A stretch of DNA of 64,000 bases from a bacterium (GTDB taxonomy: Bacteria > Bacteroidota > Rhodothermia > Balneolales > M1805), in assembly GCA_006226965.1 (NCBI GenBank), contig SBGQ01000068.1, positions 4,445 through 68,444 of the forward strand. The letters run 5' to 3'. Numbering within the stretch: position 1 is the first letter of the stretch; every line of letters begins with the position of its first letter. Both the position numbers and the translations under genes were made by a program. This document shows positions 24,510-52,576 of this stretch, piece by piece. A model generated the notes under the pieces. That model had not been told where the DNA came from. It saw nothing but the letters and a program-made list of their open reading frames with translations, and searched no databases.

Positions 24510-24550
24510 TTTTTGTCTTACCCTTGCAATTCTGCGCGTGGGAAGCACAG

Positions 24551-24622
24551 ACCAAGTATAGATTTGCTTCAATACACATGTATTCAAGTGATACTCAGAT
24601 TGTGTTTTGCGCTACAAGTATG
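24551..24622 (-). repeat. Degenerate single copy of the dispersed hairpin element (locus D)
   Basis: ACCAAGTA...GCTTCAATACACATGTATTCAAGTGATACTCAGATTGTGTTTTGCGCTACAAG aligns by eye at about 65-70% to the 39311 and 28141 copies. Shared parts are the ACCAAGT start, the CAGATT box and a weakened hairpin. Confidence 0.4.
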
Positions 24623-24630
24623 TAGTTGAA

Positions 24631-25620
24631 TCAAAAAATGAAATCCAGTTTCTTTGCCATCACTTCATCTGAAAAATAACTCTTCACCAAATCGTACATC
24701 GCAGAAACTGTTTCATCATGATAAGACAAAGCACCGTCTTTAATCACGTAGGAATCAAAAAGGAGAGATGTATCTTTTCGTTGCTGTTTCATTCGTTTTA
24801 AGAAAGCGTGATTCATGCGAAACGTACCGACTGAAATATCTTTTACTTTCTGTAAATCAATGGAATGAGAAAGATGTAGTAAAAATTCCTGATATACGGA
24901 TTCCCAGTTTGGAACGCGCAACATCGGATCAATACACAATCGAATCGGCCAACCGGCGTCCATTGCTGTTTGAATGGCCTTAAGCCTTGCTTGCAAGGAG
25001 GCGGTTTTCTTTTCGTGTAAATCGATAACAGATTGTGGCGAAAGTGACCATGCTAAAACGGTTCGTGAATTGGGTTTTAAACCTTTTATAGCAGATATAT
25101 TCGCCGATTTTGTACGCAACTCGATACTTAAACGAGGTTCTTGTTCTGTAAATTCAATCCACGGGCGCGCAAAGCCGAATAAGCCTTCAAAGGCCAATAA
25201 ATCGGTATCGTAAGAGAGGGCCAGATACATGTTTTCCTGAGTTTTATCCAACTCCTCAACTAAAGCCTTTCTAAAATCGTCCTGATTCACAAAAACAACG
25301 ACATGCGCAGAGGGAAATAAACCTTGCAGATAACAATAATCGCAGTCGTAAATGCAGTTGAGCATCACCGCATTATAATAAAAAGCTCCGCTTCCAAAAC
25401 TAGGTGTATAACCGCTCCCGGCGTACAGAAATGTATCTTTTCGTTCTGCTAAAATGAGCGCTTGATGTTCTTTTTGAAACCGCCAATCTTGTCCTGAACG
25501 GTTAAATACATCTTTGTAATGCTCTATGATGATACGCTCAGAATTCGGAAAGCGATCCAAAATCTGTTTGGTTTGATGGTGTTCTAAAACGGATTCTTCT
25601 ATGTAGATTCGAGAAAACAT
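24631..25620 (-). CDS. Spore-photoproduct-lyase-family radical SAM protein (SplB-like)
   Basis: 329 aa. The radical SAM cluster motif is C-IYD-C-DY-C-YLQG (compare CMGHCHYCYLQ of Bacillus SPL). The N-terminus IYIEESVLEHHQTKQILDRF parallels the SPL N-terminus. The gap to the upstream gene is 3 bp. Confidence 0.8.
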   Translation of the reverse strand: MFSRIYIEESVLEHHQTKQILDRFPNSERIIIEHYKDVFNRSGQDWRFQKEHQALILAERKDTFLYAGSGYTPSFGSGAFYYNAVMLNCIYDCDYCYLQGLFPSAHVVVFVNQDDFRKALVEELDKTQENMYLALSYDTDLLAFEGLFGFARPWIEFTEQEPRLSIELRTKSANISAIKGLKPNSRTVLAWSLSPQSVIDLHEKKTASLQARLKAIQTAMDAGWPIRLCIDPMLRVPNWESVYQEFLLHLSHSIDLQKVKDISVGTFRMNHAFLKRMKQQRKDTSLLFDSYVIKDGALSYHDETVSAMYDLVKSYFSDEVMAKKLDFIF

Positions 25621-26553: not shown

Positions 26554-28020
26554 CTACATAATAGTCTTTAAAACATCTTTGTAATCTAAATCCGGATGGC
26601 TAAAGTTAACATCGGAGATTTGTTTGAACTCGGTATCAACATACGATTTCAGTTTTGGGGGCAAGACTAAGTCGCTATTTCTTAGATGCAAGGCTCTTAA
26701 TACCATAACCTTAAAAACTCTAATTACCCAATCAAAACGTTCGCCAAGTTCACGAGCATTATGTGCGGCATTAGCGCTCATACTTACAATATCTTGATTA
26801 TCTGCATTCGTAGGTATGCTACTTAAACTGTGATTTACAGCTCGCGTACGCATATCAGCCGTTAATGATGTTAATAACAATTGTAATCCTTGCAGACCAC
26901 TATTTAGCCCAACAGGAGCATCAGCAAGAAATGCAGGGAGTCCATTATTTAATTTGGCGTGTGTGATTCGGTTTACAATCCGTTCTAATAAAATGGAAAT
27001 ATGAGTTAATGCCTGTGCTAGTTGGTCGGCGGCTAAAGCTATATAGGTTCCCTGAAAGTTGGCTGCGTGTAAAATCAATTCCTCATCATGAAAAAATAAA
27101 GGGTTATCATCTACCGCATTCAATTCTGTGTTAAGTAATTGTTCTGCCTGAGATAATCGCTCAATAGCTGTTCCCATCCATAAAACAACGGAACGCGATG
27201 AATAGGGCGGTTGAGGTGTACCGTGTGATTCCTCCGGTTTTAACGGACTTAACCAATCACGCAGTTTTGCAGCAGTTGTGAGCGCTGACTCATGTGCTTT
27301 TACGGAATACACTAACTCTGATAGATGTTGGATGGAGTCGTTAAAAATAAAGTACTGCAATGCAATTAAAGGGAACACCTCGTCGTGCAAAATAGAAACG
27401 GTTTTCAAATAGGTTTCGACTGTTATTCCCAATGAATAACTCGTACCGTTTACAAGAGCCAAGCCTTCTTTTTCTTTAAGTTGATATACGGGCAAATCGC
27501 TGTAACTATTTAATTGCGAAGCTTTTGCAAGTTCATGTTCATTAATCCAAAAATCATCTTTGCCGACTAACATACGAGCCAATGAGGCTAACGGTACTAA
27601 GTCACCCGATGCACCCACAGAGCCAAATTGATAAAAAACCGGAGCGAAGCCAAGATTATATAATGAAATCATGTAGTTGATGAGTTCAAGACTTACGCCT
27701 GAACGGGCCTGACTCAAGGCATGAATTCGAATTAAGAAAATGAGTCTGGAAACAGAATAGGAAAGTTTGGGGCCTGTAGCGCCGCTTAATTGTTGGAGTA
27801 GATTTGTTTGATGCTGAAGGAGTTCTTCTTTTGGTATTGATTCGGATACAAGCGGGCCAAATCCTGTGTTAATGCCATAAATTGAGGCCTTATCTGTAAG
27901 TGATTTCTCAATAAATAACCTGTTTTGAATAATCTCATTCTTTTTCTTCGATGATAGTTTGATGGCAGGAATAGCATTAGAAAGTGAATGTAAGGATAGG
28001 CTATTGTCTAGTGAATACAT
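26554..28020 (-). CDS. MIO-dependent aromatic amino-acid/histidine ammonia-lyase family enzyme
   Basis: 488 aa. MIO-forming triad in GSVGASGDLVPLA. Also the YGINTGFG block and NGTS, QDIVSMS motifs of the HAL/PAL/TAL fold. Confidence 0.85.
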   Translation of the reverse strand: MYSLDNSLSLHSLSNAIPAIKLSSKKKNEIIQNRLFIEKSLTDKASIYGINTGFGPLVSESIPKEELLQHQTNLLQQLSGATGPKLSYSVSRLIFLIRIHALSQARSGVSLELINYMISLYNLGFAPVFYQFGSVGASGDLVPLASLARMLVGKDDFWINEHELAKASQLNSYSDLPVYQLKEKEGLALVNGTSYSLGITVETYLKTVSILHDEVFPLIALQYFIFNDSIQHLSELVYSVKAHESALTTAAKLRDWLSPLKPEESHGTPQPPYSSRSVVLWMGTAIERLSQAEQLLNTELNAVDDNPLFFHDEELILHAANFQGTYIALAADQLAQALTHISILLERIVNRITHAKLNNGLPAFLADAPVGLNSGLQGLQLLLTSLTADMRTRAVNHSLSSIPTNADNQDIVSMSANAAHNARELGERFDWVIRVFKVMVLRALHLRNSDLVLPPKLKSYVDTEFKQISDVNFSHPDLDYKDVLKTIM

Positions 28021-28140
28021 GATATTTGGCGTGTAATTTTACGGTTCAAGACAATAAACAGGAGTAAATCGTTCCTTAAAACGAATTTGTTTTATTGTGA
28101 TGCCATTGAAAAATTGAATGTAGGAAGTAGATACAAATCA

Positions 28141-28325
28141 TAAATACGCCTAGCTAAACACATACTCATGAGATTCCCAGATTGCGGTTTTCACCGCAAT
28201 GACTTGAAAAGTAGGTCTTGCCGTTGAAAAACAGTATCTAAGAAACAACAACCAAGTTTTTAATGGATACGTTTCATTTATATGTACTCAGGCTTGCACC
28301 GCATCAACGGAGAAATTGCATCAAA
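28141..28325 (-). repeat. Dispersed hairpin element, one good and one degenerate tandem copy (locus A)
   Basis: Copy 1 (28141-28203) reads AAATACGCCTAGCTAAACACATACTCATGAGATTCCCAGATTGCGGTTTTCACCGCAATGAC. Copy 2 (28251-28325) starts ACCAAGTTTTTAATGGATACGTTTCATTTATATGTACTCAGG. The spacing is about 123 bp. Confidence 0.7.
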
Positions 28326-28335
28326 CGCTGATAAA

Positions 28336-30027
28336 TTACTGATTACGTTTCGAAATAATCTGTTGCAATAAAGCCGTATTTATAGTCACATCAGCTTTTT
28401 TATACTGTTCAGGTAAACAATACTTATGAGTTAGTGCGGATAAACTTGAGTTGGTGTCATTTATAAGTCGATCACCAAGAGCTTCTTCTTTAATAGGAAT
28501 AATCTTTCTGGAAACAGGAGCTATCAACATATACAGGGAACCTTCTTTATAAGGGCCGGCAAAAACCTGATTTTTCTGAGGTTCATCCATTGGCAGGTAA
28601 TGCTCGGGTTTACCTTCAGTCTCTGAAACTTTGGACGTTGTGGTTCTGTTTTCAAGCGTATAATCATCTTTAAATAAAGGGATTATACTCGTGAAATAAC
28701 GTTCCTTTTGCCATAATTTAATTAGTTCAGCCACTTTCGATGAATCAGAAAACAAATAAGCATGGTACGTAGAAGAGACAGAATCAGGGTAACGCTGTTC
28801 TTTATAGGACTCATAAAAATCATGTGCGAGTTTTTGTTTATCTAATAACGGTGTCTGATATCGAAGATGAGCATAATACAGAGTTTCAAAACGTGCATCG
28901 TCTTGTTCTTTAACGACTTCCTGATTCTTCATATACCCATTTTTCTTGGCTAAATCTGTAATTAAGATGTTCTTCAACCAATAGGAAAGTGCCTGTTGAG
29001 GTTCATATTCAATCAACTCACTTGGAATGGTATGAACGGCTTGCAAAAATTGCTCAACCGGAAGCGACTTGCCGTTCAATACAGCTATTTCTGATGCAGC
29101 AGTATCTGTTTTTGCTATTCTGCCTGCTGCTTTTCGTAAAAGAACTTTATGAGCTTCAATCGGTTGTTTTTTTATCACTTGTTGAAAAGAAGTAATAACA
29201 GCTTGGAATAGGGCATCACGAATAACTACTTGTTGTTCGGCATATAACGAATCAATAAAGAACTGTGTCGATTCTTCCAACTTACGACGGAATACATCCA
29301 GTAATAGTTGTTCTCTGTTATTTTTATACTGCTCAACATGTACTCGTTCTGTTTCTAAAATGTCGGTTGCTTTGAATATATGCCAACCTTTTGTGGACTT
29401 TACAGGTTTAGAATAACTTCCTTTCTTCAGGTTAAACGCAGTGATTTCTGCACTTAAATCAATCATTCCGTATCGAACCCAACCTAATTTATAAGAGGTG
29501 TCAGAAGCGGCAGAACTGTACAGGCTCAGGGATTGTTTTGCCACTTTTTCAAAAGATGCGCCTTTTTGAAGCTCTTTATAATAAGCGTCAATCTGAGTTT
29601 GAGTAGGTGCAAAAATTTGTTCCAATCTCATTGCCGTGTATATGCGTTTAAATGCTTGTCTAATTTCATTTTCAACAGGTTGTTGAACTCTTTCATCCAT
29701 AAAATGACGCATATACACTTGTCTTAGGGTGTTTTCTGTTTTTTGGATGATATCAGATTGAACTTCGAATAAGGTATCTAATCCCAATTCTTGAGCTTTT
29801 TGTGCTATGATTTTACGCTCTAATTCGTATTCGGCGAACTTTGCTCTTAATTCAGGAGTATCTTTTCGGCGTTCTTTTAACACATAATTGATATAAGACT
29901 GAGTAAACTTATCGGCTGTAAGGGAATATCCATTCCACGAAGCCACCGCCTCATTGTTTTTTTTCTTTTCAGAGCAACTAAATAGTATGGGGATTAGAAC
30001 AAGAAGAAGTAATAAACGAAGTTTCAT
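28336..30027 (-). CDS. Peptidyl-prolyl cis-trans isomerase, parvulin/SurA-like lipoprotein
   Basis: 563 aa. Lipobox LFSC|SEKK. The PpiC-type rotamase core is around FEKVAKQSLS...GWVRYG...SKPVKSTKGWHIFKATD. Confidence 0.75.
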   Translation of the reverse strand: MKLRLLLLLVLIPILFSCSEKKKNNEAVASWNGYSLTADKFTQSYINYVLKERRKDTPELRAKFAEYELERKIIAQKAQELGLDTLFEVQSDIIQKTENTLRQVYMRHFMDERVQQPVENEIRQAFKRIYTAMRLEQIFAPTQTQIDAYYKELQKGASFEKVAKQSLSLYSSAASDTSYKLGWVRYGMIDLSAEITAFNLKKGSYSKPVKSTKGWHIFKATDILETERVHVEQYKNNREQLLLDVFRRKLEESTQFFIDSLYAEQQVVIRDALFQAVITSFQQVIKKQPIEAHKVLLRKAAGRIAKTDTAASEIAVLNGKSLPVEQFLQAVHTIPSELIEYEPQQALSYWLKNILITDLAKKNGYMKNQEVVKEQDDARFETLYYAHLRYQTPLLDKQKLAHDFYESYKEQRYPDSVSSTYHAYLFSDSSKVAELIKLWQKERYFTSIIPLFKDDYTLENRTTTSKVSETEGKPEHYLPMDEPQKNQVFAGPYKEGSLYMLIAPVSRKIIPIKEEALGDRLINDTNSSLSALTHKYCLPEQYKKADVTINTALLQQIISKRNQ

Positions 30028-30191
30028 TTCAGGTTTTTTAAGATTCAGCCAAAAATAGAGATTTTGTTAGATTGATAGTTCTGAATTATTACTAAAAATA
30101 ATTCGTGTACAATAACATGTATTTAAAAGTGAATTAAGCAGATACGATATCACAGATATTTGTAAAAGTGAAAATGCCACAAAATGTCATT

Positions 30192-30206
30192 TCCACAATC
30201 TGTGGA
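30192..30206. promoter_or_regulatory. Perfect palindrome TCCACA-atc-TGTGGA in the long nrdJ upstream region (candidate operator)
   Basis: The palindrome is seen directly. Related half-sites are GCCACA at 30176 and TGTGGA at 30406. No regulator is assigned. Confidence 0.25.
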
Positions 30207-30574
30207 TAACTCGTGATTTAGGTGTTTATTTGCATATATTAATTTTAGAACAAAGTCAATAACTATAAGTAGTGCAATAGTTTATATCCGTTTATAGCAT
30301 GATTTGATTCATAAGTAATAAGTGCTTGATAATTAAAAAACTCATACCCGAAATTCGCATCACATTGTCAAGTAAAAAGTGCAAATGTTGATAAGTTCAA
30401 CACTTTGTGGAAAACTTCTTTGAATTTAATTTGGAAGCTCATTTTTACCCTGCTAATTTATCATCCCGTTGGGCAGAGGATAGAAAGGATGTGTAACTAT
30501 CCCGACTCTTTGGGGGCTGGCAATGCCGGCTGTTGGATAAAAAATAGTCTAGAAAAGCTTAATAGTAGGAGCCA

Positions 30575-33500: not shown

Positions 33501-34192
33501 TTCACAAATATGTAGCTCATCGTAAACGCCTTCCGAACAGAAGAGGCGGTTATACTCAGAAATCAAAAATTGGCGGACAAAGTGTCTATCTGAGAACAGG
33601 TGAGTACGAAAACGGTCAGATTGGTGAAATCTTTATTGATATGCACCGTGAAGGCGCTGCGTTCAGAAGCTTGATGAACTGTTTTGCGATTGCCATTTCT
33701 TTAGGTTTACAGCATGGCGTACCTCTCGAAGAGTTTGTTGATGCGTTTGTATTTACAAAATTTGAGCCATCGGGACCTGTGTTTGGTAATCCGCACATCA
33801 AAATGAGTACATCAATTATTGATTATGTATTCCGTGAGTTAGCCGTTACCTATTTGGGTCGCCACGATTTAGCTCATGTTGATGCGGATATGATTGAAAC
33901 CAGAACCTTGCGTCCGGAGCCGGCTTGCGAAGTTGAAGGAGTTGAACATCAACACATGATTGAAAAAACTCATACTCCTGTTGCAACTGCTCCTGCTCCT
34001 GTAAAAGTAGCAGAAGAACACGTTCACGCAACAGCTACGGTAAGCGTCGGCAAAACTGAAACCGCTTATGAAAAAGCAAAACAACTCGGTTATACCGGCG
34101 ATGTGTGCAGCGATTGCGGTAGCATGACGATGGTTCGTAACGGTACTTGTTTAAAATGTATCACTTGCGGCAGCACTAGCGGCTGTTCGTAA
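30575..34192 (+). CDS. nrdJ: Class II adenosylcobalamin-dependent ribonucleotide reductase
   Basis: 1205 aa. Active-site block [22 protein letters not shown]. Other blocks: [10 protein letters not shown] and [25 protein letters not shown]-terminal Cys-rich tail: [27 protein letters not shown]. Confidence 0.92.
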
Positions 34193-34220
34193 GCAGATAA
34201 GGATTGAATCTCGTATAGGT

Positions 34221-34254
34221 AAGCCCGTTGGAGAAATCCGGCGGGCTTTTTTTG
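34221..34254 (+). terminator. Rho-independent terminator of nrdJ
   Basis: AAGCCCG-ttggagaaatccgg-CGGGCTT, followed by TTTTTTT. Confidence 0.7.
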
Positions 34255-34265
34255 ATCTTATGATA

Positions 34266-34620
34266 AAAAACACACGTCATATCACTTCGTAGTACTGCGT
34301 ATCACTTCGTAGCACCTGCGGTGTCTGCGAAAGCAGGTATCTGGGAATAGTTTATAAACGAATGCAGCAGAGCGTACTTTTTAATTAATCAAGAAACAAA
34401 AACACTCGTCATATCACTCCGTAGTACTACGTATCACTTCGTAGCACCTGCGGTGTCTGCGAAAGCAGGTATCTGGGAATAGTATACAAACGAATGCAGC
34501 AGAGCGTACTTTTTAATTAATCAAGAAACAAAAACACGTGTCATACCTGCGAAAGCAGGTATCTGGGAATGGTTTACAAACGAATACAGCAGAGCGTACT
34601 TTTAATCATTCAGGAAAAAA
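34266..34620 (+). repeat. Tandem array of 3 units of the dispersed hairpin element, 132-bp period (locus B)
   Basis: The marker GTCAT recurs at 34276, 34408 and 34540. Units 1 and 2 are near-identical. Unit 3 is about 40 bp shorter internally. The GAAA-loop hairpins are at 34325-34336, 34457-34468 and 34545-34560. Confidence 0.92.
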
Positions 34621-34640
34621 AATTATATTCATACAAAAAA

Positions 34641-34901
34641 ATGTCCTACATCGATTTAGCCCGACACATGCTTCGAGACAACAAGAACTTAAAGGACAAA
34701 GTTCGTTTCAGACATTATTCTAAGGACATCATTACAGACGATACCAAACTCAATCCCGATAAAGGGCTCAACCGAAGGGTTCCCAAAGAACACAAATTCA
34801 GTATTAGAGCCGTTCGGTATAATCTTCGATTGCTCATCATTATAACACTATTTCTGTTGATTACAGCGCTCATAGTCTGGGTTGTTAATGGAAAAGTGTA
34901 A
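34641..34901 (+). CDS. Small basic protein with a single C-terminal TM helix (hypothetical)
   Basis: The ATG at 34641 gives 86 aa, MSYIDLARHML...LRLLIIITLFLLITALIVWVV. The longer ORF-track start at 34569 would lie inside the repeat array and is unlikely. Confidence 0.4.
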   Translation: MSYIDLARHMLRDNKNLKDKVRFRHYSKDIITDDTKLNPDKGLNRRVPKEHKFSIRAVRYNLRLLIIITLFLLITALIVWVVNGKV

Positions 34902-35247
34902 ATCTAAAACATTGTGAATCAATTTAATCAAGTAGTTTCCTAAGAGTTTGAGTTTCCCGAATTTCGGATTATTGGTTGTAGCACAAAAATCAGATTCGTG
35001 ATTTTCATGGCAAACACTTTACATCACTACGTATTACCATGGGTAACATGGCAAACTATATTGTCACATAATGAAAGGGAAATCAAAACAACTGTAACTA
35101 TTCACTATCATGTAACCTCTTGCACACCTTATCGTTTAGCGCGATTCAAAAGAAATTCATAATCATTAAATGTTTACTTTACATAGGTTTTTAGGGTTAT
35201 AATCTTACTGAATTACCGATTTTAGGAGTAAATCAATTTGTTAATAC

Positions 35248-37041
35248 ATGCTCGTTTCTAATTTGAACACTACTGAAGCCGCATCCATTGCAGTTCTGCC
35301 TTTCGTAAATATGAGTCCGGACCCGGAGAATGAATATTTCTCTGATGGAATGACCGAAGAAATTATTAATGCACTCACCACTATAAACGGTTTAAAAGTA
35401 ATTGCCAGAACCTCAGCGTTTGCGTATAAAGGTCTGAATTATGATATCCGTAAGATTGGTTCAGATTTAGGAGTTCAGTCGGTTTTAGAAGGAAGTATCA
35501 GAAAATCGTCGAATCGGGTTCGAGTTACCGCACAGTTGATTAATGCAACGGACGGTACCCATTATTGGAGTCGTAATTTTGACAGAGAATTGATTGATAT
35601 TTTTGAACTTCAGGATGAAATAAGTGTCTTAATTGCTGATCAGATTCGCGAAAATTTCGGGCATATCGAGTATGAAAATCATCTGGTTAAACAATCAACT
35701 TCTGATATTTCAGCCTATGAGTTGTTTTTAAAAGGGCGTTATCATCAATTAAAATGGAATCCTGATTCTTTTCACGAAGCCATACGTTATTATACAAAAG
35801 CAACCGAAGCTGATCCCAAATTTGCCCGTGCCTATTACGGAAATATGCAATGTTACGGCTTGCTTGCCATGTGGGGTTATATTGACCAACAAACCGGCAT
35901 TGAACGATCAGTCGATAATTTCCGAATTGCGCAAGACTTAGATAAACAATTGCCGGAATATCACATGTCATTTGTAGGCCGTTATTTTTGGGGTGAATGG
36001 AATTACGAACTCGGTTATCAACATTTAAAATTAAACATCGAACAGTTTCCGAATTACACGGAAGCCTTACAAGCTTTAGCTGAATTGGCTCTGGCAAACG
36101 AAGCGTTTGAATTAGCAGAAGAATACATTACCAAAGCCTTACATATCGATCCCTTATCAGCGAATGATTGGTACACTTTAGCCCTTATAATGTATCACAA
36201 AGAAGATTACGTAAAATCACTGGAATGCAATCGAAAAGCCTTAGATATTAATCGGGAATTACTATTGGGAATTCATCTTAATGCATTGTGCTATTTGCAG
36301 TTACACGATGAGATTAAGTTTAAGGAATGTATTTCCGGTTTACCTGATGAAGAAAACATTCAACTACTGTATTCTGTATTTCATAAGGAAAAAGAAATTG
36401 AAACGGAAACGGTTAAAAACTGGACAGAAGCAGCCGAAGTCTATCAGCAATTAATTCCATATGAACTTTATATTTTGGCTAATTCTAAGCATGAAAACGA
36501 AGCCATTCAACTTTTAAACCACTACATAGCCCAACGTCGCGGACAATTGCTTTACTTTAAAACCGAACCGTTATTGAAACCGTTATGGAATCTGGTTTCG
36601 AAACATGATTTATATCCGTCTAATTGGACTCCTCCGGAAACCAGTGGTTTATTTTCGACTTCATCAAAAACCAAAGTATCAATCAGCGATGAAGAGTTGG
36701 AGCAAACATTTACACGTTTAGTAGCTTTCATGCAAGATAACTCACCTTATTTGGATGCTTCGTTGAGTTTAGTTTCATTAGCAAATCAGCTTGATATCCA
36801 TCCGAACCGACTTTCTTATATCATAAACGAACGTGCTGAGGCAAATTTTAACGAATTTGTGAATCGTTATCGTTTAGAAGTATTCAAAGAGAGAGCATTG
36901 CAGCCTGAGTTTGCCCATTTGTCAATTATGGGATTAGCGCTTGAAAGTGGTTTTAATTCGAAATCTTCTTTTAATGATTTCTTTCGCAAACAAACCGGAC
37001 TCACCCCAAGAGAGTGGATAAAAGCCGCAAAACAAAGATAA
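35248..37041 (+). CDS. AraC-family transcriptional regulator with an N-terminal TolB-N-like module and a central TPR region
   Basis: 597 aa. N-terminus: IAVLPFVNMSPDPENEYFSDGMTEEIINALTTINGLKVIARTS. TPR-like repeats fill the middle. C-terminal AraC HTH: LANQLDIHPNRLSYIINE...GFNSKSSFNDFFRKQTGLTPREW. Confidence 0.75.
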   Translation: MLVSNLNTTEAASIAVLPFVNMSPDPENEYFSDGMTEEIINALTTINGLKVIARTSAFAYKGLNYDIRKIGSDLGVQSVLEGSIRKSSNRVRVTAQLINATDGTHYWSRNFDRELIDIFELQDEISVLIADQIRENFGHIEYENHLVKQSTSDISAYELFLKGRYHQLKWNPDSFHEAIRYYTKATEADPKFARAYYGNMQCYGLLAMWGYIDQQTGIERSVDNFRIAQDLDKQLPEYHMSFVGRYFWGEWNYELGYQHLKLNIEQFPNYTEALQALAELALANEAFELAEEYITKALHIDPLSANDWYTLALIMYHKEDYVKSLECNRKALDINRELLLGIHLNALCYLQLHDEIKFKECISGLPDEENIQLLYSVFHKEKEIETETVKNWTEAAEVYQQLIPYELYILANSKHENEAIQLLNHYIAQRRGQLLYFKTEPLLKPLWNLVSKHDLYPSNWTPPETSGLFSTSSKTKVSISDEELEQTFTRLVAFMQDNSPYLDASLSLVSLANQLDIHPNRLSYIINERAEANFNEFVNRYRLEVFKERALQPEFAHLSIMGLALESGFNSKSSFNDFFRKQTGLTPREWIKAAKQR

Positions 37042-37131
37042 GGTTCGAATTTTCATAAAGAAGTCCGGAATTCACTATTACGGACGTTCGTAAGAGGGCA
37101 GTTGCTGAACTTAGGTCCGAACGAATAATTC

Positions 37132-37200
37132 ATCCCAAACCTTGAGGGATTTGAAGTGAGAATTTGGGTTTCTATCCCAAACCTGGACATCGTTTTGGGG
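37132..37200 (+). promoter_or_regulatory. Four CCCAAA/TTTGGG segments able to form mutually exclusive hairpins in the leader of the 37291 operon
   Basis: ATCCCAAACC at 37132 and 37174; TTTGGG at 37163 and 37194. Pairings 1:2, 2:3 and 3:4 are all possible. Confidence 0.3.
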
Positions 37201-37290
37201 TCCAAGTCTTACTTTATTATCCTTGTTTTGTGTGTGAAATAGGAGTTCATCAAAATCAACCTAAAAAACACAATTTATAACACCTTTTTT

Positions 37291-37956
37291 ATGAAAACTT
37301 CTATTGCATTCATCGTTATCATGAGCCTGTTCAGCTTACAAGTAAATGCTCAAACATCTGAAATTGATTCATTAAAACAAGAGATTCAAACCTTAAAAAC
37401 ACAGTTAGCGCCCATTAACAGTTTATCAAATTCTGATTTAAGAGATTGGGGCAGAGGCTGGTACACATTAGGAACGAGTGGAGCTACTTATCAATTCGGT
37501 TTAGAATTGGGATATATGTGGAAAGCGTATGATGATAAAGACCAGCCTGAATCAGATAATATAATCGGTAAAAACAATGCCTATCGTTATGGTATTTCTT
37601 TTGGAGCTGATTATTTTCTGAATGAAAACGTCTGGAAAAACGGTTCTTTAATCGATTCAGACGGCTATATGTTCTATTCTAAATTGAATGCGGCTTCACC
37701 TTTGTACTTAAACATACTTTCCTTTGCCGGACATCTAAAGTTTGCTTATGCTAAAGCATTTACCAATAACAAACACGGATTCGACGATGCCCGTTTTGTA
37801 TTTGGTTACGGATTTGATGTAGAATTCCGTACATCACAAAAAGAACAAATTACCATAGGTTTCACAGATGCCAGCGACTCCTTTTTCAGCAACAGAAAAG
37901 ACACCATTTTCCCGCAAAAAGTTAGATTCGTATTTGGTTTCAAACGATTCTTTTAA
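37291..37956 (+). CDS. Hypothetical outer-membrane beta-barrel-like protein
   Basis: 221 aa. Signal peptide ...SLQVNAQ, a short coiled segment, then Gly/Tyr/Phe-rich alternating strands ending FGFKRFF. Confidence 0.5.
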   Translation: MKTSIAFIVIMSLFSLQVNAQTSEIDSLKQEIQTLKTQLAPINSLSNSDLRDWGRGWYTLGTSGATYQFGLELGYMWKAYDDKDQPESDNIIGKNNAYRYGISFGADYFLNENVWKNGSLIDSDGYMFYSKLNAASPLYLNILSFAGHLKFAYAKAFTNNKHGFDDARFVFGYGFDVEFRTSQKEQITIGFTDASDSFFSNRKDTIFPQKVRFVFGFKRFF

Positions 37957-37975
37957 ACATTAATCTGATGGATTC

Positions 37976-38836
37976 ATGAAAAAAGCATTTACACTATTTA
38001 TGTGTGCATTTAGTCTCACAAGTGTTTTAAAAGGCCAAACACAAAGTGTAAAAGTGGGTGATGAGCTTCGGCGATTCACCCTTTTTGCTCCTAAGTCTAT
38101 TTCAAAAGAAAAGCCTAGTTCATTAGTCATAAACTTTCATGGTACGGGCATGACCGCGTTAGAGCATATGTTTTATACTGAAATGAATAAAACGGCTTCC
38201 AAAAATTCGTTCATTATCGTTTATCCGCAGGGGAAAAATAATGATTGGAATGTCGGTCTTGGGCAAGAATATTACGAAGGAACGGATGTCGCATTCATAG
38301 ATTCGTTAGTAAAAAAGATCAAAAAAGAATACACAATTACACAAGTGTATGGTATTGGTTTTTCTAGAGGCGGTTTTTTTGTACAACGATTGGTTGCCGA
38401 ATTCCCTGATTTATTTACTGCAGTTGCTAGTATTTCTGCACCGATTACAAATAAAGCTGCACAGCAGATGCCTAAGACAGTGAACGTAGGCTTTATGTTG
38501 GTTCAAGGAGACCAAGATAAAGCTGTTCTGCATACCGGAATACAAGGAGCTTATTATTCTGATGAAGCATGTATTCAGTTTTGGCTGGATAGAAACAATC
38601 TCGGTATGAATTACAAAGAAACTGTGTACGATAAAAAATACGATGGCACTAAAATCATACGAAAGTCATATGTAGGCTCACCAAAAATCGAATGGCTTGC
38701 TATTGAGAACGGCGGACATACTTGGCCCGGTTCTGATGATTTTAATGTCGGATTTAACCTAGGAAAAACCACCCATCAATTAAATTTTAATCAAACGGTT
38801 TGGGATTTCTTTTCAAAGCAAAGGAGAACAAAATGA
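37976..38836 (+). CDS. PHB-depolymerase-family (LpqC-like) secreted esterase, alpha/beta hydrolase
   Basis: 286 aa with a signal peptide. Blocks: LVINFHGTG, nucleophile elbow GFSRGG, and GGHTWPG near the C-terminus. Confidence 0.7.
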   Translation: MKKAFTLFMCAFSLTSVLKGQTQSVKVGDELRRFTLFAPKSISKEKPSSLVINFHGTGMTALEHMFYTEMNKTASKNSFIIVYPQGKNNDWNVGLGQEYYEGTDVAFIDSLVKKIKKEYTITQVYGIGFSRGGFFVQRLVAEFPDLFTAVASISAPITNKAAQQMPKTVNVGFMLVQGDQDKAVLHTGIQGAYYSDEACIQFWLDRNNLGMNYKETVYDKKYDGTKIIRKSYVGSPKIEWLAIENGGHTWPGSDDFNVGFNLGKTTHQLNFNQTVWDFFSKQRRTK

Positions 38837-39234
38837 ATGTTAATATGGATAAAAAATCGAAATCGCGCGTAATTCAGTTGTTGATTGCCTTAATCCTCAT
38901 AATGGTTTTTCATGGGAGTATTTTATTTGGATTGATTCCTTTTGAATACACTTGGGGCGGACGACTAAAAAGTATCGAAGAAATGTACGTATTTGAGTCT
39001 GTCTCAATAGCTGTAAATCTCTATTTAGGTTTAATCTTATTGATTCGTGGAGCGTATGCAAAGCCAATTATTTCTTTGAAATTTGTTAAGGTGAGTCTTT
39101 GGATTTTTGCTGGTTTATTTTTGCTGAATACATTCGGCAATGTGTTGGCTGAAACCTGGCAAGAACAACTTTTTGCAGGCGTAACTTTGTGGATGTCGTT
39201 TTTAACGTGGAGATTGGCAGCTAAGCAAGACTGA
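38833..39234 (+). CDS. Small integral membrane protein (4 TM), hypothetical
   Basis: The ATG at 38833 is preceded by AAGGAG (38821-38826) and overlaps the esterase stop. Four hydrophobic helices are predicted. Confidence 0.5.
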   Translation: MNVNMDKKSKSRVIQLLIALILIMVFHGSILFGLIPFEYTWGGRLKSIEEMYVFESVSIAVNLYLGLILLIRGAYAKPIISLKFVKVSLWIFAGLFLLNTFGNVLAETWQEQLFAGVTLWMSFLTWRLAAKQD

Positions 39235-39310
39235 ATTAAAACTCTAAGAATAGGGGGTTAGTGTTATGTGTGATACTGTGCAAAACGGTATCTAGTAAGG
39301 TAATTTGGCT

Positions 39311-39493
39311 ACCAAGTTAAAAAATACGCTTAGCTAAATATGTGTTTTAAGAGCTGCCTAGATTACTGCTTTCGCAGTAATGAAAAAAAATCCCGAATTA
39401 AAACGGCATCTTATGATTAACAATCAAGTTAAAAAATACGCTTCGCTAAATATGTGTTTTGAGAGCTGCCTAGATTACTGCTTTCGCAGTAAT
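39311..39493 (-). repeat. Two tandem units of the dispersed hairpin element, 112-bp period (locus C)
   Basis: (AC)CAAGTTAAAAAATACGCTTAGCTAAATATGTGTTTTAAGAGCTGCCTAGATTACTGCTTTCGCAGTAATGA occurs twice with 2 substitutions. The hairpins TTACTGC-TTTC-GCAGTAA are at 39363-39380 and 39475-39492. Confidence 0.88.
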
Positions 39494-39526
39494 GAAAAAA
39501 AAATCCCGTTTTCCTACGGGATTTAA
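39494..39526 (-). terminator. Rho-independent terminator (minus strand), about 120 bp after the DUF5916-like gene
   Basis: AAATCCCG-ttttccta-CGGGATTT. On the minus strand it is followed by a run of 9-10 T. Confidence 0.65.
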
Positions 39527-39643
39527 GAACAAAAGACAACTTTGCTAGATAAATGTCCGGCTATGCCCATATAACAGTTTTCACTTAGTAGAAATTTGTA
39601 TTGCTACAAAGACCAGATATCAAAATGAAGGTTTTAAAAACTA

Positions 39644-42133
39644 TTAAGACTTAAATTGGTTTTTTAAGCTGTTGTAATCAAGAAAATAAATCATTCGAAC
39701 AGAAACCGTATTGTTTTGGTTTTCTCTGAATGTATCCTTCAAGTTTTGGAAATAATGTGCATTGTATGTTTGGTCAAATCTGTTAACGGCAAACTTCCAA
39801 ACCAAACTTAAAAAACTACCTTGAGCAAACTGCCAAGTGTACACCATATCCACATTAATGAAATTCACAGTTCTGTCATATTCCTCGGGATTTGTATTTG
39901 TTGACCGTAAACTGCCGTTTGTGTTTAATAAATACAATTGCGAGTTTGATAAACTACTTACATAGTGTCGGGCAACCATTGTTAACCCCATACGATTCGT
40001 GAAATTATATTTACCTCGTAAGCTAGTCACGAAAGTTTGAACATCACGTTTAGCAAAAACAGGGTCAATTTCAGTATCTAGATTGGTAGTAAATCCGATA
40101 CTGTTCCAACGTGGCAACCAAGAAAACCCTAAACTCATCGAAAGGCGTTCATTAGCTCTCCATGTTTGTGACATATCAAAATCTAAGGCAAAAGTATTGT
40201 AGAAGTCAGGGTAGTAGCGCATGTATAGTGAAGGAGAGTAGAACCAAGCCTTATTTGAATTACTTTCAAACCAAAACCCGATTAGACCACTATAACCTTT
40301 CTTGAAATAACGTCCTTCAACACGAGGCTCATAAAAATCATTAGAGACAAAATCGAAGTTTATATTTCCGCCGATATAATGCAGCTTCTTGTGTTGCGAA
40401 TTCCAGTTAAAATTAAATCGGGAAAACTGATACATCGGATTACCTTCACCGATTGGTTTTAATAATCGGCTGTAATTCACATTAAAATTCAGATTTAATC
40501 GATTGTACCAACCTTTTGGTTTCGTTTCCTGTATGCCAACCCATGCGCCTTGAGTGAGATAATTATTATTGGTGAAATAGCCTAAATCGTTGTTTGAATA
40601 TTTGGTATCTGCCAATTCCTGCCAGTAGTTAAATCGAACTCGTCCACCGGTTTTTCCTGCATAAAAAGAGTGATAATAACCTGTTTCATTTGAACTTGCC
40701 GGATCCCATTTTTGGCTTACAGAGGCTTGGCCGCCGCTTCCCCAAGTGTTTTTCTTGTTATTCACATCATAAATAAAAGCAGAAACATTTGAATCGTAGA
40801 AATCGCCGGTACGAGTTACATTTGTGTTTACAAAACTGATACTCGAATTGTTTTTAAGAGATTGATTCAATACAAAAACGTTATAGTTAATAAGGGGAGC
40901 TGTTTTGTAGTTACGTTTTTCTCCCGTTAAGGTGTCTTCTATAACAGCATAAGTTTCATCAGTGATGGCGTTCATCACACCGACACCCAAGCCCGAATGC
41001 GTTCTTCCGGAAATCTTAGATGCATTTAAAAGTTTGGTTTCCGAAGGATTAGAAACAACTTTTTCATTGGATTGAACATCATCCGAAGCTCCCCAATAAT
41101 TGATTGGTGTGCCTCCGACTCTACGTGAATAAAACAACCCGCCTTGATTGAATAATTCCATCCCTTCGGTAAAAAAATCACGGTTTTCATCGAATCGAAC
41201 TTCAAAAGGACTTAGGTTAAATACTTGAGGGTCACTTTGTACCTGACCAAAATCCGGGATTAGAGTAGCATCTAATGTAAATGCCTGATTAATTCCCCAT
41301 TTTAAATCCATACCGCCGTTTATTGCTGTGGTTAAATCAGGAGTGGGGCCGGCAATAGGATAGTGGTTGGCATAGTAAGATAAATAAGGTGATAACTGGA
41401 GACGAACAGGTGGTTTGATGTCCGTTAATCCGGTTAGATAACCTTCTTGATTCATAAACCCGTTCACGTTTGGGTCGATTGGATTCCAAAAATACTGTTC
41501 TTCAGTCTTACGTCGTCGGCGAGTTACGTTTAAGCCCCAATCCTGAATATCTCTTTCAGCAAAACGAATGGATGCAAAAGGAATAAAGATTTCAAAACTC
41601 CAGTACGTATCGTCGATGTGAGTGGCACTTTTCCAAACGGAATTCCATGAAAAATCTTCTGAGTCACCATTCGGGTTTGGAGCTTGTTTGGCATCCCATT
41701 GTTCATTTAATGGAGTTATGAAATACTCAAAACCGTTCAGATTGTCTTTGTAGGTATCTAAAATCAAGCCGACAAAATCATTATTTCCAAAACCATCACG
41801 TCCTGCTAATTCCGCAGATATACGATCTCTTGATGGTTCGTAACAAATACCTCCGAAGTAAATACCTTGATCATCGTAGGTGATATAGGCAATGGTTTTT
41901 GCGTTTTCAGGTTCTTTGTTTCCGGGCTTTGGGCGCAATTCAACAAAATCCTCTAATAATGTAGCCTGATTCCATTCATGAGTAGTTACAATTCCGTCGA
42001 TTGTAATCGGATGTACTCGTCTTTTAGACTGAACAGATTTAGTTTGCTTCGAATGGTCTGATTCTGGAATAGTTGAAGCAAAAATTTCAGAATTAAAGGT
42101 ACACAATAATAATAGCACAGATAGAAAACGCAT
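39644..42133 (-). CDS. DUF5916-type outer-membrane protein with an N-terminal CBM9/DOMON-like domain
   Basis: 829 aa with a signal peptide. The N-terminal block is HPITIDGIVTTHEWNQATLLEDFVELRPKPG...YDDQGIYFGG...DFVGLILDTYKD. A long Tyr/Asn/Phe-rich beta-barrel-like region follows. Confidence 0.6.
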   Translation of the reverse strand: MRFLSVLLLLCTFNSEIFASTIPESDHSKQTKSVQSKRRVHPITIDGIVTTHEWNQATLLEDFVELRPKPGNKEPENAKTIAYITYDDQGIYFGGICYEPSRDRISAELAGRDGFGNNDFVGLILDTYKDNLNGFEYFITPLNEQWDAKQAPNPNGDSEDFSWNSVWKSATHIDDTYWSFEIFIPFASIRFAERDIQDWGLNVTRRRRKTEEQYFWNPIDPNVNGFMNQEGYLTGLTDIKPPVRLQLSPYLSYYANHYPIAGPTPDLTTAINGGMDLKWGINQAFTLDATLIPDFGQVQSDPQVFNLSPFEVRFDENRDFFTEGMELFNQGGLFYSRRVGGTPINYWGASDDVQSNEKVVSNPSETKLLNASKISGRTHSGLGVGVMNAITDETYAVIEDTLTGEKRNYKTAPLINYNVFVLNQSLKNNSSISFVNTNVTRTGDFYDSNVSAFIYDVNNKKNTWGSGGQASVSQKWDPASSNETGYYHSFYAGKTGGRVRFNYWQELADTKYSNNDLGYFTNNNYLTQGAWVGIQETKPKGWYNRLNLNFNVNYSRLLKPIGEGNPMYQFSRFNFNWNSQHKKLHYIGGNINFDFVSNDFYEPRVEGRYFKKGYSGLIGFWFESNSNKAWFYSPSLYMRYYPDFYNTFALDFDMSQTWRANERLSMSLGFSWLPRWNSIGFTTNLDTEIDPVFAKRDVQTFVTSLRGKYNFTNRMGLTMVARHYVSSLSNSQLYLLNTNGSLRSTNTNPEEYDRTVNFINVDMVYTWQFAQGSFLSLVWKFAVNRFDQTYNAHYFQNLKDTFRENQNNTVSVRMIYFLDYNSLKNQFKS

Positions 42134-52494: not shown

Positions 52495-52576
52495 TACCGG
52501 TGATCGGACTCGAACCGATACATCTTGCGATACACGATTTTGAGTCGTGCGCGTCTACCAATTCCGCCACACCGGC
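52495..52576 (-). tRNA. tRNA-Leu (anticodon CAA), class II with a long variable arm
   Basis: The minus strand reads GCCGGTG-TG-GCGGAATTGGTAGACGCG-CACGA-CTCAAAA-TCGTG-TATCGCAAGATGTA-TCGGTTCGAGTCCGA-TCACCGGT-A. It has a 7-bp acceptor stem (G1:U72 wobble), the anticodon loop CU-CAA-AA and the T-loop TTCGAGT. CCA is not fully encoded. Confidence 0.9.

What the first reader, a model, noticed from the sequence alone, without database searches (positions are those of the whole stretch)
39311..39493. Second array of the same element (2 units, 112-bp period), each unit preceded by a terminator-like hairpin
Two near-identical units (2 substitutions) lie in the convergent gap between the 38833 membrane-protein gene and the DUF5916-like gene.

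Read on the minus strand, each unit is CATTACTGC-GAAA-GCAGTAATCTAGGCAGCTC...TTTAGCTAAGCGTATTTTTTAACTTGG. Each is preceded by a GGGATTTTTTTT terminator-type segment, strong at 39501-39524 and weak at 39391-39406.

The conserved blocks shared with the nrdJ array are CTGCGAAAGCAG, ATCTRGG and GCGTA plus T-run. The inter-unit filler is unrelated (132-bp versus 112-bp periods). So it is the core that is being propagated, not the flanks.
Basis: seen in the sequence. Interest (0 to 1): 0.65.

Follow-up and report, generated by a model that had tools for sequence, protein, structure and literature searches.

The report
REPIN-like palindromic intergenic repeat family
The two near-identical units are real and belong to a small, lineage-restricted family of hairpin-bearing non-coding repeats that sit just after genes in a Saprospiraceae-like bacterium; this resembles the REP/REPIN and MITE repeats known from other bacteria, so it is a new family of a familiar kind.

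Summary
In detail: two 78-nt copies with 2 substitutions and a 112-nt period, on the minus strand.

The same ~74-nt core occurs three times after nrdJ. I also found a sixth copy at 28132-28205(-). The core is TCAT, an 8-bp stem capped by GAAA, ATCTRGG, 20-21 nt, then AGCNRRGCGTAY and a T-run.

The hairpin is strongly supported by covariation: 100% of cells paired and 7 of 8 pairs changed on both sides.

A relative with 90% identical NrdJ carries a full copy 37 nt after nrdJ, with an entirely different but complementary stem. A 93% relative has none.

The "terminator-like hairpins" before each unit are not unrelated filler. They are inverted, degenerate copies of the hairpin module (consensus AGAT.C.GTTTT.CAAC.G.AT.AC). 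These also follow B1, flank C1, and end the related ~100-nt units in a more distant relative.

The full element is therefore left hairpin, central box, inverted right hairpin and T-run, repeated in tandem. The first right hairpin serves as the DUF5916 gene's terminator.

Rfam, phage, plasmid, 185,579-genome and metagenome scans found no other members. No transposase lies in the window.

Best reading: a new REPIN/MITE-like extragenic repeat family. A family of small RNAs is not excluded.

The parts
39424..39498 (-). Unit B2 core: left hairpin module (ATTACTGC-GAAA-GCAGTAAT at 39474-39493), CTAGG box, central box AGCGAAGCGTAT, T-run
   Evidence: CM R1 84.9 bits, E=2.4e-21; repeat D1
39312..39386 (-). 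Unit B1 core, 2 substitutions from B2
   Evidence: CM R1 86.7 bits, E=7.4e-22; repeat D1
39493..39524 (-). T1: 9-bp hairpin AAATCCCGT/ACGGGATTT followed by T9. It is the intrinsic-terminator-like end of the DUF5916 gene and aligns with the series of right (inverted) modules
   Evidence: terminator scan; alignment of right modules
39391..39420 (-). T2: degenerate right module after B2 (AAGATGCCGTTTTAATTCGGGAT followed by T8).
   Evidence: 78% identical to T1 over 27 nt (D2, D13); shares AGATRCCGTTTT with B0 (D3); alignment
39268..39301 (+). B0: inverted hairpin module, tail-to-tail with B1 (GTGTGATACTGTGCAAAACGGTATCTAGTAAGGT)
   Evidence: Local alignment to the A3 module scores 28; none of 4000 random window segments reaches it, maximum 24. 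CM R3 14.0 bits, E=0.32. Alignment
39523..39593 (-). B3: possible decayed third core between the DUF5916 stop codon and T1 (weak evidence)
   Evidence: CM R1 13.9 bits, E=0.25; not recovered with R2
34316..34389 (+). Unit A1 core (nrdJ array); the 5' arm pairs through three G.U pairs
   Evidence: CM R1 84.5 bits; TRF period 132
34448..34521 (+). Unit A2 core
   Evidence: CM R1 83.8 bits
34538..34611 (+). Unit A3 core (canonical form: GTCAT-ACCTGC-GAAA-GCAGGT-ATCTGGG)
   Evidence: CM R1 88.1 bits
28132..28205 (-). Unit C1 core, a new sixth copy between the PPIase gene (28336-30027, -) and the histidine ammonia-lyase-type gene (26554-28020, -). Stem ATTGCGGT/ACCGCAAT
   Evidence: pattern search; CM R1 79.8 bits, E=6.7e-20
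28095..28129 (+). C0: inverted, degenerate hairpin module, tail-to-tail with C1
   Evidence: CM R3 14.0 bits, E=0.33, exactly abutting the C1 tail; alignment
28213..28247 (+). C2': inverted hairpin module just upstream of C1, separated from it by the T-rich linker CTACTTTTCAAG
   Evidence: CM R3 22.2 bits, E=0.0022; the model did not include this sequence. CM R1 E=0.2. Alignment
34221..34248 (+). nrdJ intrinsic terminator, ancestral (shared with relative L021); the A array starts about 20 nt after its T-run
   Evidence: terminator scan; comparison with L021

Best explanation
The two units are part of a tandem array of a ~110-nt non-coding palindromic repeat element.

Anatomy. Each full element has:
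- a left module: TCAT, an 8-bp stem with a GNRA (GAAA) loop, then ATCTRGG;
- a ~45-nt centre with the box AGCNRRGCGTAY and a T-run;
- an inverted, looser copy of the hairpin module at the right end, which is followed by a T-rich linker where the next left module follows.

What it resembles. This is the architecture of REP doublets (REPINs) and small MITEs.

How it behaves. The family is confined to one Saprospiraceae-like lineage. It sits in gaps after genes, always pointing the same way as the upstream gene. Arrays grow by local tandem duplication of whole units; this step is shown. How it reaches new loci is inferred: either mobilisation in trans by an enzyme encoded elsewhere, or old duplications. 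No such enzyme was seen.

Effect on the host. In the orientation found, the right hairpin plus T-run can stop transcription. The first one (39501-39524) is the only terminator of the DUF5916 gene. So the element has probably been co-opted as a 3'-end or terminator cassette (inferred).
For: - Six strong copies lie at three non-homologous intergenic loci and are the only repeat family in 64 kb.
- The hairpin is kept by compensatory change: 7 sequences, 100% of cells paired, 7 of 8 pairs with changes on both sides, 0 of 500 shuffles as good, and slid controls collapse. With 9 modules including those of L016 it is 93% paired.
- Inverted modules abut the cores: C2' E=0.0022, B0 and C0 E~0.3 at exactly the expected positions. 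B0 scores above 4000 random segments.
- Right ends align across B, C and the L016 units. The L016 units fold as long terminal-inverted-repeat hairpins.
- Presence/absence: the L016 gap of 1036 nt holds the units, while the same gap in sister contigs L017/L019 is 163 nt. A copy follows nrdJ in L024 (NrdJ 90%) but not in L021 (NrdJ 93%).
- Tandem arrays of doublets and flanking A/T runs attributed to co-option for transcription attenuation are described for REPINs (PMC3337134).
- T1 is the only terminator-like site after the DUF5916 gene.
- Orientation equals that of the upstream gene at all 5 loci: A, B, C, L024 and L016.
- No Rfam family matches.
Against: - Copies at different loci are only 54-66% identical, far less than active REPIN populations.
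- No target-site duplication was found.
- No transposase, RAYT, integrase or reverse transcriptase lies in the window, and the rest of the genome could not be read.
- Only 3 loci, all within 11 kb, and none in the other ~63 kb examined. A high genome-wide copy number is therefore not shown.
- The A units have no recognisable right module.
- Right modules B0 and C0 rest on weak scores plus position.
- Strict co-orientation with transcription, the invariant GNRA loop on the sense strand and G.U pairs in A1/A2 would equally fit an RNA-level function.
Confidence: 0.5

Rival explanations
1. A family of sibling small RNAs or 3'-flank RNA elements. Each unit would be transcribed in the sense direction, either read through from the upstream gene or from its own start near TCAT. 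It would have a protective 5' GNRA hairpin, conserved single-stranded boxes (UCURGG, AGCNRRGCGUA) that bind a target or a protein, and the right hairpin plus U-run as its terminator.
For: - Sense strand equals upstream-gene strand at 5 of 5 loci, although A is on + and B and C are on -. This argues against a replication-strand rule.
- The GAAA loop is kept in 6 of 7 cores, and three G.U pairs in A1/A2 would be A.C mismatches on the other strand.
- The element is kept after nrdJ in a second species, with a wholly re-paired stem and conserved boxes.
- In L024 no terminator separates nrdJ from it.
- Tandem sibling sRNAs are well known in other bacteria (my own knowledge).
Against: - In A and B the cores lie after strong intrinsic terminators.
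- No promoter motif is conserved upstream. The Bacteroidota -7 box TAnnTTTG is approximated only before C1 and B (by eye).
- No structure beyond the hairpin is conserved, and single-unit folds are mostly not better than shuffles.
- Only T1 is a good terminator.
- Inverted module copies and presence/absence between close relatives are more typical of repeat elements.
Confidence: 0.25
2. Nothing but a recent local segmental duplication of the DUF5916 3' flank, with no element family.
For: B1 and B2 are 97% identical and adjacent. The spacer looks like a junction between T1-like and B0-like sequence.
Against: The same core is found at two other loci in the window and in another species, with covarying stems.
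Confidence: 0.02
3. Double-stranded DNA operator: the 8-4-8 palindrome is the binding site of a dimeric regulator, and the other boxes are auxiliary sites.
For: Perfect palindromes and a fixed 20-21-nt spacing between the conserved boxes.
Against: - The arms differ completely between copies while staying complementary. A protein site would keep its sequence, not its pairing.
- Two loci lie in convergent gaps or after terminators, with nothing downstream to regulate.
Confidence: 0.03
4. Single-stranded-DNA hairpin signal: either ends derived from an IS200/IS605-type or RAYT-type element and acted on as ssDNA, or a priming signal. This reading uses the very stable GCGAAAGC and GCGAAGC mini-hairpins.
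For: - GCGAAAGC caps the A and B stems, and GCGAAGC is the B2 central box. Both are the classic stable DNA mini-hairpins found at phage ssDNA origins (PMC13037366).
- REPs are processed as ssDNA hairpins by HUH enzymes (PMC6006769 abstract).
Against: - C1 and L024E do not keep these motifs.
- Orientation follows transcription, not one replication strand.
- No HUH gene is in the window.
Confidence: 0.1
5. Tandem small-peptide genes on the opposite (+) strand: MCF(K/E)SCLDYCFRSNEKK...
For: Mini-ORFs of 26 and 24 codons start at the same position in both B units.
Against: The frame has no start codon and is interrupted in A (one search lists no such ORF). The conservation pattern is that of a stem (paired changes), not of codons.
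Confidence: 0.02

Closest known systems
REP sequences and REPINs (REP doublets) of Proteobacteria
   Same: - Extragenic location.
- Each module is an imperfect palindrome with conserved 5' and 3' flanks.
- Two modules lie in inverted orientation around a less conserved spacer of tens of nt.
- Tandemly repeated doublets occur.
- A/T runs next to the modules have been read as co-option for termination (PMC3337134; PMC3116915).
   Different: - The conserved 5' flank is TCAT, not GTAG.
- The spacer carries its own conserved box.
- The right module is much more degenerate than the left.
- Copies at different loci are only ~55-66% identical.
- There is a strict orientation with respect to the upstream gene.
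- No RAYT is known for this lineage, and copy number is unknown.
Small MITE-type intergenic repeats with hairpin-forming ends that are co-transcribed with neighbouring genes (Correia elements of Neisseria, ERIC/IRU of enterobacteria, RUP/BOX of pneumococci). These comparisons rest on my own knowledge.
   Same: - 100-150-nt non-coding elements with terminal inverted repeats.
- Found in transcribed intergenic space.
- They can supply terminators or processing sites.
- They show presence/absence between close relatives.
   Different: - No target-site duplication is seen.
- No parent IS is known.
- Each end is itself a GNRA-capped palindrome.
Tandem sibling sRNA genes (for example PrrF1/2, LhrC1-5, NsiR1 arrays). 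This comparison rests on my own knowledge.
   Same: - Tandem units of ~70-130 nt.
- Paralogues are 55-95% identical, with conserved single-stranded boxes and a conserved hairpin.
- Each unit ends near a hairpin plus T-run.
   Different: - No promoter is recognisable.
- Most unit-end hairpins are poor terminators.
- Inverted module copies are present.
Extraordinarily stable DNA mini-hairpins GCGAAAGC and GCGAAGC (PMC13037366)
   Same: These exact sequences sit at the top of the A and B stems and in the B2 central box.
   Different: They are not conserved in C1 or in the L024 copy, so they are not a defining feature.

Membership tests
REP/REPIN | Extragenic position | tested here: met
   All copies lie between ORFs.
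REP/REPIN | Module is an imperfect palindrome with conserved 5' and 3' flanking sequence | tested here: met
   TCAT, 8-bp stem, 4-nt loop, stem, (A)TCTRGG. Covariation.
REP/REPIN | [quoted passage not shown] | tested here: inconclusive
   Seen for B1/B0, C1/C0 and C2'/C1, and clearly in the L016 units. The right modules are degenerate (E~0.3 for B0 and C0), and the A units have none.
REP/REPIN | Associated RAYT (Y1/HUH) gene flanked by the repeats | not testable with these tools
   No such gene among the ~50 ORFs of the window. Only ~74 kb of the genome is available.
REP/REPIN | Tens to hundreds of highly similar copies per genome | not testable with these tools
   3 loci in ~74 kb, all within 11 kb. 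Inter-locus identity is 54-66%, which is lower than in described active REPIN populations.
MITE | Terminal inverted repeats | tested here: met
   Left end GTCAT...ATCT against right end AGAT...ATGAC/ATCAC. L016 units fold end-to-end.
MITE | Target-site duplication | tested here: not met
   No direct repeat flanks B1+B0, C1+C0 or the L016 units (sequences, read by eye).
MITE | Parent IS with the same ends | not testable with these tools
   None in the window or in the fetched loci.
Rfam RNA families | Match to a curated covariance model | tested here: not met
   Only a tRNA reaches gathering score in the window. Nothing relevant at E<=10 over 34000-39800 or L016 6300-7400.
Independent sRNA gene | Own promoter and intrinsic terminator | tested here: inconclusive
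   The sigma-70-type scan is not applicable to Bacteroidota. No -7 box is conserved, by eye. Only T1 passes the terminator scan.
Independent sRNA gene | Conservation of sequence and structure in other species | tested here: met
   L024:6004-6078, E=0.0098 with a model that did not contain it. The stem is fully re-paired.

The most novel reading that the evidence does not exclude
The elements are a previously undescribed class of Bacteroidota RNA. They would be transcribed with, or just after, the upstream gene. They would be kept by selection (the nrdJ copy is retained across species with a fully compensated stem) and amplified in tandem as sibling RNAs. The GNRA hairpin and the boxes UCURGG and AGCNRRGCGUA would be a protein- or target-binding platform. 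The inverted modules would be their terminators rather than transposon ends.
Probability: 0.2. Interest if true: 0.6.

Novelty: new member of a known kind. Interest (0 to 1): 0.35.

Why it matters
Small palindromic extragenic repeats are well studied in Proteobacteria but hardly described in Bacteroidota.

This family gives a clean, small case in which three things can be seen together:
- the module structure (hairpin, box, inverted hairpin);
- growth by tandem duplication;
- probable co-option of one module as a gene's terminator.

It also has a practical consequence. These repeats break short-read assemblies: the Logan contig stops inside the B2 hairpin. They can also be mistaken for terminators or sRNA genes in annotation.

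If the RNA reading were right, it would add a new structured RNA class for a phylum that lacks Hfq and ProQ-type paradigms.

Tried and rejected
- Rfam at gathering and at E<=10: nothing.
- Exact-pattern scans with GAAA-N6-ATCTRGG-N18-23-AGCNRRGCGTA found 5 genome-contig hits, 7 metagenome hits and 0 viral hits. All hits lack the hairpin, so they are chance matches.
- BLAST against plasmids and phages: no match.
- Orthologous-gap comparison for the B locus failed. The nearest DUF5916 homologues are only 61-68% identical, with different neighbours and 7-25-nt gaps.
- A second conserved helix downstream of the hairpin is not supported by RNAalifold. Individual folds are out of register between A, B and C.
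- Promoter readings, checked by eye, do not fit the spacing in all three types. I tried Bacteroidota -33/-7, ECF-type AAC...CGT and sigma-54.
- Antisense mini-ORFs are not conserved.
- The weak hit at 24550-24636(-) (E=0.36) and the decayed B3 are not recovered with model R2. They are kept only as possibilities.
- The L025 hit containing ATCTGGGAAT lies inside a coding gene and was discarded.
- The Logan contig break is explained by k=31 merging of the local copies, so it gives no information on copy number.

Full report
**1. The observation**

The region 39311-39493 contains two copies of a 78-nt sequence, at 39313-39390 and 39425-39502. They are 97% identical (two substitutions) and 112 nt apart.

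On the minus strand each copy reads T-run, CATTACTGC-GAAA-GCAGTAAT, CTAGGCAGCTC..., TTTAGC(T/G)AAGCGTATTTTTTAACTTG.

The flanking genes:
- The DUF5916 gene (39644-42133, minus; Pfam E=1e-190) ends upstream.
- A 144-codon ORF without a Pfam match (38800-39234, plus) converges from the other side.

A 9-bp hairpin followed by T9 at 39524-39501 is the only terminator-like site after the DUF5916 gene. The 'weak' one at 39391-39420 is a 78% copy of it (D2).

The 12-mer CTGCGAAAGCAG occurs 5 times in the window against 0.13 expected.

**2. The family inside the window**

A looser pattern found a sixth copy, C1, at 28132-28205 on the minus strand. It lies between a PPIase gene and an aromatic-amino-acid-lyase (histidine ammonia-lyase-type) gene.

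All six copies align over ~74 nt: TCAT, 8-bp stem, GAAA, stem, (A)TCTRGG, 20-21 nt, AGCNRRGCGTAY, then T-rich sequence.

Identities:
- 96-97% between A1/A2 and between B1/B2;
- 82% between A1-2 and A3;
- only 54-66% between loci.

A covariance model of the six copies (R1) finds them at E=1e-20 to 1e-22 and nothing else below E=0.2 in the window. It finds nothing in a further ~10 kb upstream reached through a Logan contig of the same organism.

These are also the only real repeats in the window. All three loci lie within 11 kb.

**3. The hairpin**

The stems differ between loci but stay complementary:
- A3: ATACCTGC/GCAGGTAT
- B: ATTACTGC/GCAGTAAT
- C1: ATTGCGGT/ACCGCAAT

RNAalifold predicts only this helix.

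With the copy from another species added (section 5), all 56 cells pair and 7 of 8 pairs show changes on both sides. No shuffle of 500 reaches this, and sliding the partner by 1-3 columns drops pairing to 21-41%.

A1 and A2 pair through three G.U pairs, which would be mismatches on the other strand. The loop is GAAA on the sense strand in six of seven cores.

Nothing else folds consistently. Single units are mostly no better than shuffles.

**4. What the 'terminator-like hairpins' are**

Three findings:
- The plus strand just beyond the tail of B1 (39268-39301) reads GTGTGATACTGTGCAAAACGGTATCTAGTAAGGT. This is an inverted copy of the hairpin module. Its local alignment to the A3 module scores 28, above all of 4000 random window segments, whose maximum was 24.
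- A module-only model (R3) did not contain any of the following sequences. It finds an inverted module directly upstream of C1 (28213-28247, E=0.0022), one directly at the tail of C1 (28095-28129, E=0.33), and B0 (E=0.32).
- The two weak hits sit exactly where a right end is expected, which chance would hardly give.

Aligned on the sense strand, T1, T2, B0, C0 and C2' share the consensus YTAGATnCYGTTTTnCAACnGnATSAC.

So the B locus reads as follows:
- stop codon;
- possibly a decayed core B3 (39523-39593, weak: E=0.25 with R1, lost with R2);
- right module T1 with T9;
- B2 core;
- right module T2 with T8;
- B1 core;
- right module B0.

The 112-nt period is one whole element, and the array is a tandem amplification of it. 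The alternative is that T2 is a duplication junction between a T1-like and a B0-like half. That gives the same picture.

The A units have no recognisable right module. Instead, A1 and A2 carry a 21-nt sub-repeat inserted into the left end.

**5. Relatives**

The source is a Saprospiraceae-like member of the Bacteroidota. The best DUF5916 homologue is only 68% identical, and named hits are Saprospiraceae and Chitinophagaceae MAGs. The relatives examined:

| Locus | Relation to the window organism | What lies in the comparable gap |
|---|---|---|
| DUF5916 relatives (L015-L020) | best 68% identical | no shared synteny; gaps of 7-25 nt after the gene |
| L024 | NrdJ 90%; PPIase-nrdJ synteny kept | full-length copy 37 nt after the nrdJ stop, at L024:6004-6078 |
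| L021 | NrdJ 93% | the ancestral terminator, then a convergent PEP carboxylase gene after 82 nt; no copy |
| L016 | DUF5916 65% | two units in a 1036-nt gap |
| L017/L019 | sister contigs of L016 | the same gap is only 163 nt, with a plain terminator |

Details of the L024 copy:
- It scores E=0.0098 with R1, which did not contain it.
- Its stem is entirely different (ACCCTGAC/GTCAGGGT) and its loop is TAAG.
- It keeps the boxes GTCA, TCTCGGAA and TTTAG...AGCGTA.

Details of the L016 units:
- Each is a ~140-nt repeat whose core spans ~100 nt.
- The left end is GTCATT-stem-GAAA-stem-AATCT.
- The right end is the inverted module AGATTCTGTTTT(T/A)CAACA(A/G)G(T/A)TGAC.
- They fold end-to-end as terminal inverted repeats.

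The family is thus older than the species. It shows presence/absence between close relatives, and its ends are conserved more widely than its centre.

**6. Searches elsewhere**

- Rfam has no matching family.
- An exact pattern for the window-type core gave only chance hits in 185,579 species-representative genomes and in JGI metagenomes, and none in viral contigs. That pattern would not have found the L024 or L016 forms.
- Plasmid and phage collections have no match.
- None of the ~50 ORFs of the window is a transposase, integrase or reverse transcriptase.

**7. Interpretation**

The anatomy is two inverted palindromic modules with conserved flanks, a looser spacer, tandemly repeated doublets and T-runs at the junctions. 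REPINs are described in the same terms (PMC3337134). It also resembles small MITEs with hairpin ends.

I therefore read it as a new family of this known kind. What is shown and what is inferred:

| Step | Status |
|---|---|
| The family, its hairpin, the inverted modules, tandem growth, and presence/absence between relatives | shown |
| Transposition in trans; use of the right hairpin plus T-run as a terminator | inferred |

The terminator inference would explain why all five loci have the element pointing with the upstream gene.

Points against membership in REPINs proper:
- low inter-locus identity;
- no RAYT seen;
- unknown copy number;
- TCAT instead of GTAG;
- degenerate right modules.

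The main rival is an RNA-level function. It is favoured by the strand asymmetry, the co-orientation with transcription (A on plus, B and C on minus), and the retention after nrdJ with a fully compensated stem. It cannot be excluded without transcript data. However, selection for mobility would also keep a hairpin.

Rejected readings:
- Operator DNA: the arms change sequence.
- A mere local duplication: copies occur at other loci and in another species.
- Antisense mini-ORFs: not conserved.

**8. Verdict**

The reading of the inter-unit hairpins as unrelated filler or terminators is only partly right.

The thing is a new, narrowly distributed member of the palindromic extragenic repeat class, of moderate interest.

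Noticed in passing
window 34283-34325 (and the same part of unit A2, 34415-34457): Units A1 and A2 carry a 21-nt sub-repeat (TCACTTCGTAG-YAC-(C)TGCG-KT, twice) inserted between GTCATA and the hairpin. A3 lacks it. The rebuilt 5' arm pairs through three G.U pairs. The pieces ...GTATCAC... resemble the 3' end of the right module.
   Followed up: partly
window 30178-30210 and 30377-30440; L024 2137-2200: The region upstream of nrdJ is almost identical between the window and the 90% relative (AAATGTTGATAAGT..ACACTTTGTGGAAAACTTCTTTGAATTTAATTTG). It also contains CCACAA..TTGTGG-type palindromes. These are probably the nrdJ promoter with NrdR-type boxes.
   Followed up: no
L016 7246-7345 and 9489-9588: A different 100-nt repeat (81% identical) with TGAGT...ACTCA inverted ends lies on both sides of the AMP-binding gene. 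It looks like a second MITE-like family in that organism.
   Followed up: no
L022 13625-13665 (same in L023 7430-7470): The nrdJ terminator of an 86% relative is AAAAAGTCATTCTTGT-GAAA-ACGAGAATGACTTTTTTTTT. This looks like the left module with its stem extended through GTC/GAC and flanked by A and T runs. It hints that modules and terminators interconvert.
   Followed up: partly
window 39474-39493, 34321-34340 and the B2 central box (GCGAAGC on the minus strand, about 39442-39448): GCGAAAGC and GCGAAGC are the 'extraordinarily stable' DNA mini-hairpin sequences known from phage ssDNA origins (PMC13037366). They are not kept in C1 or in the L024 copy.
   Followed up: partly
L006 8641-8661 (same sequence as window 39493-39473): The short-read Logan contig of the same organism (SRR8389942) ends inside the B2 hairpin, about 30 nt after the T9/T8 difference. 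This is the expected k=31 graph merge of the two tandem copies, so these repeats fragment short-read assemblies.
   Followed up: yes
window 34641-34901 (+): The listed ORF 34569-34901 starts inside unit A3. The likely true start is the ATG at 34641 (86 codons), giving a small protein with a C-terminal hydrophobic stretch and no Pfam match.
   Followed up: no
window 39340-39420 and 39452-39526 (+): Mini-ORFs antisense to the B units encode Cys-rich peptides (MCF(K/E)SCLDYCFRSNEKK...). They are not conserved in the A units, so they are judged accidental.
   Followed up: yes
window 52495-52576 (-): An 82-nt tRNA with a long variable arm (Rfam 58 bits) is the only Rfam match in the window.
   Followed up: no
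window 24550-24636 (-): A weak full-length match to the core model (E=0.36) lies right after the stop codon of the SPL-like radical-SAM gene, again in the gene's orientation. It is not recovered with model R2 and may be a decayed copy or chance.
   Followed up: partly
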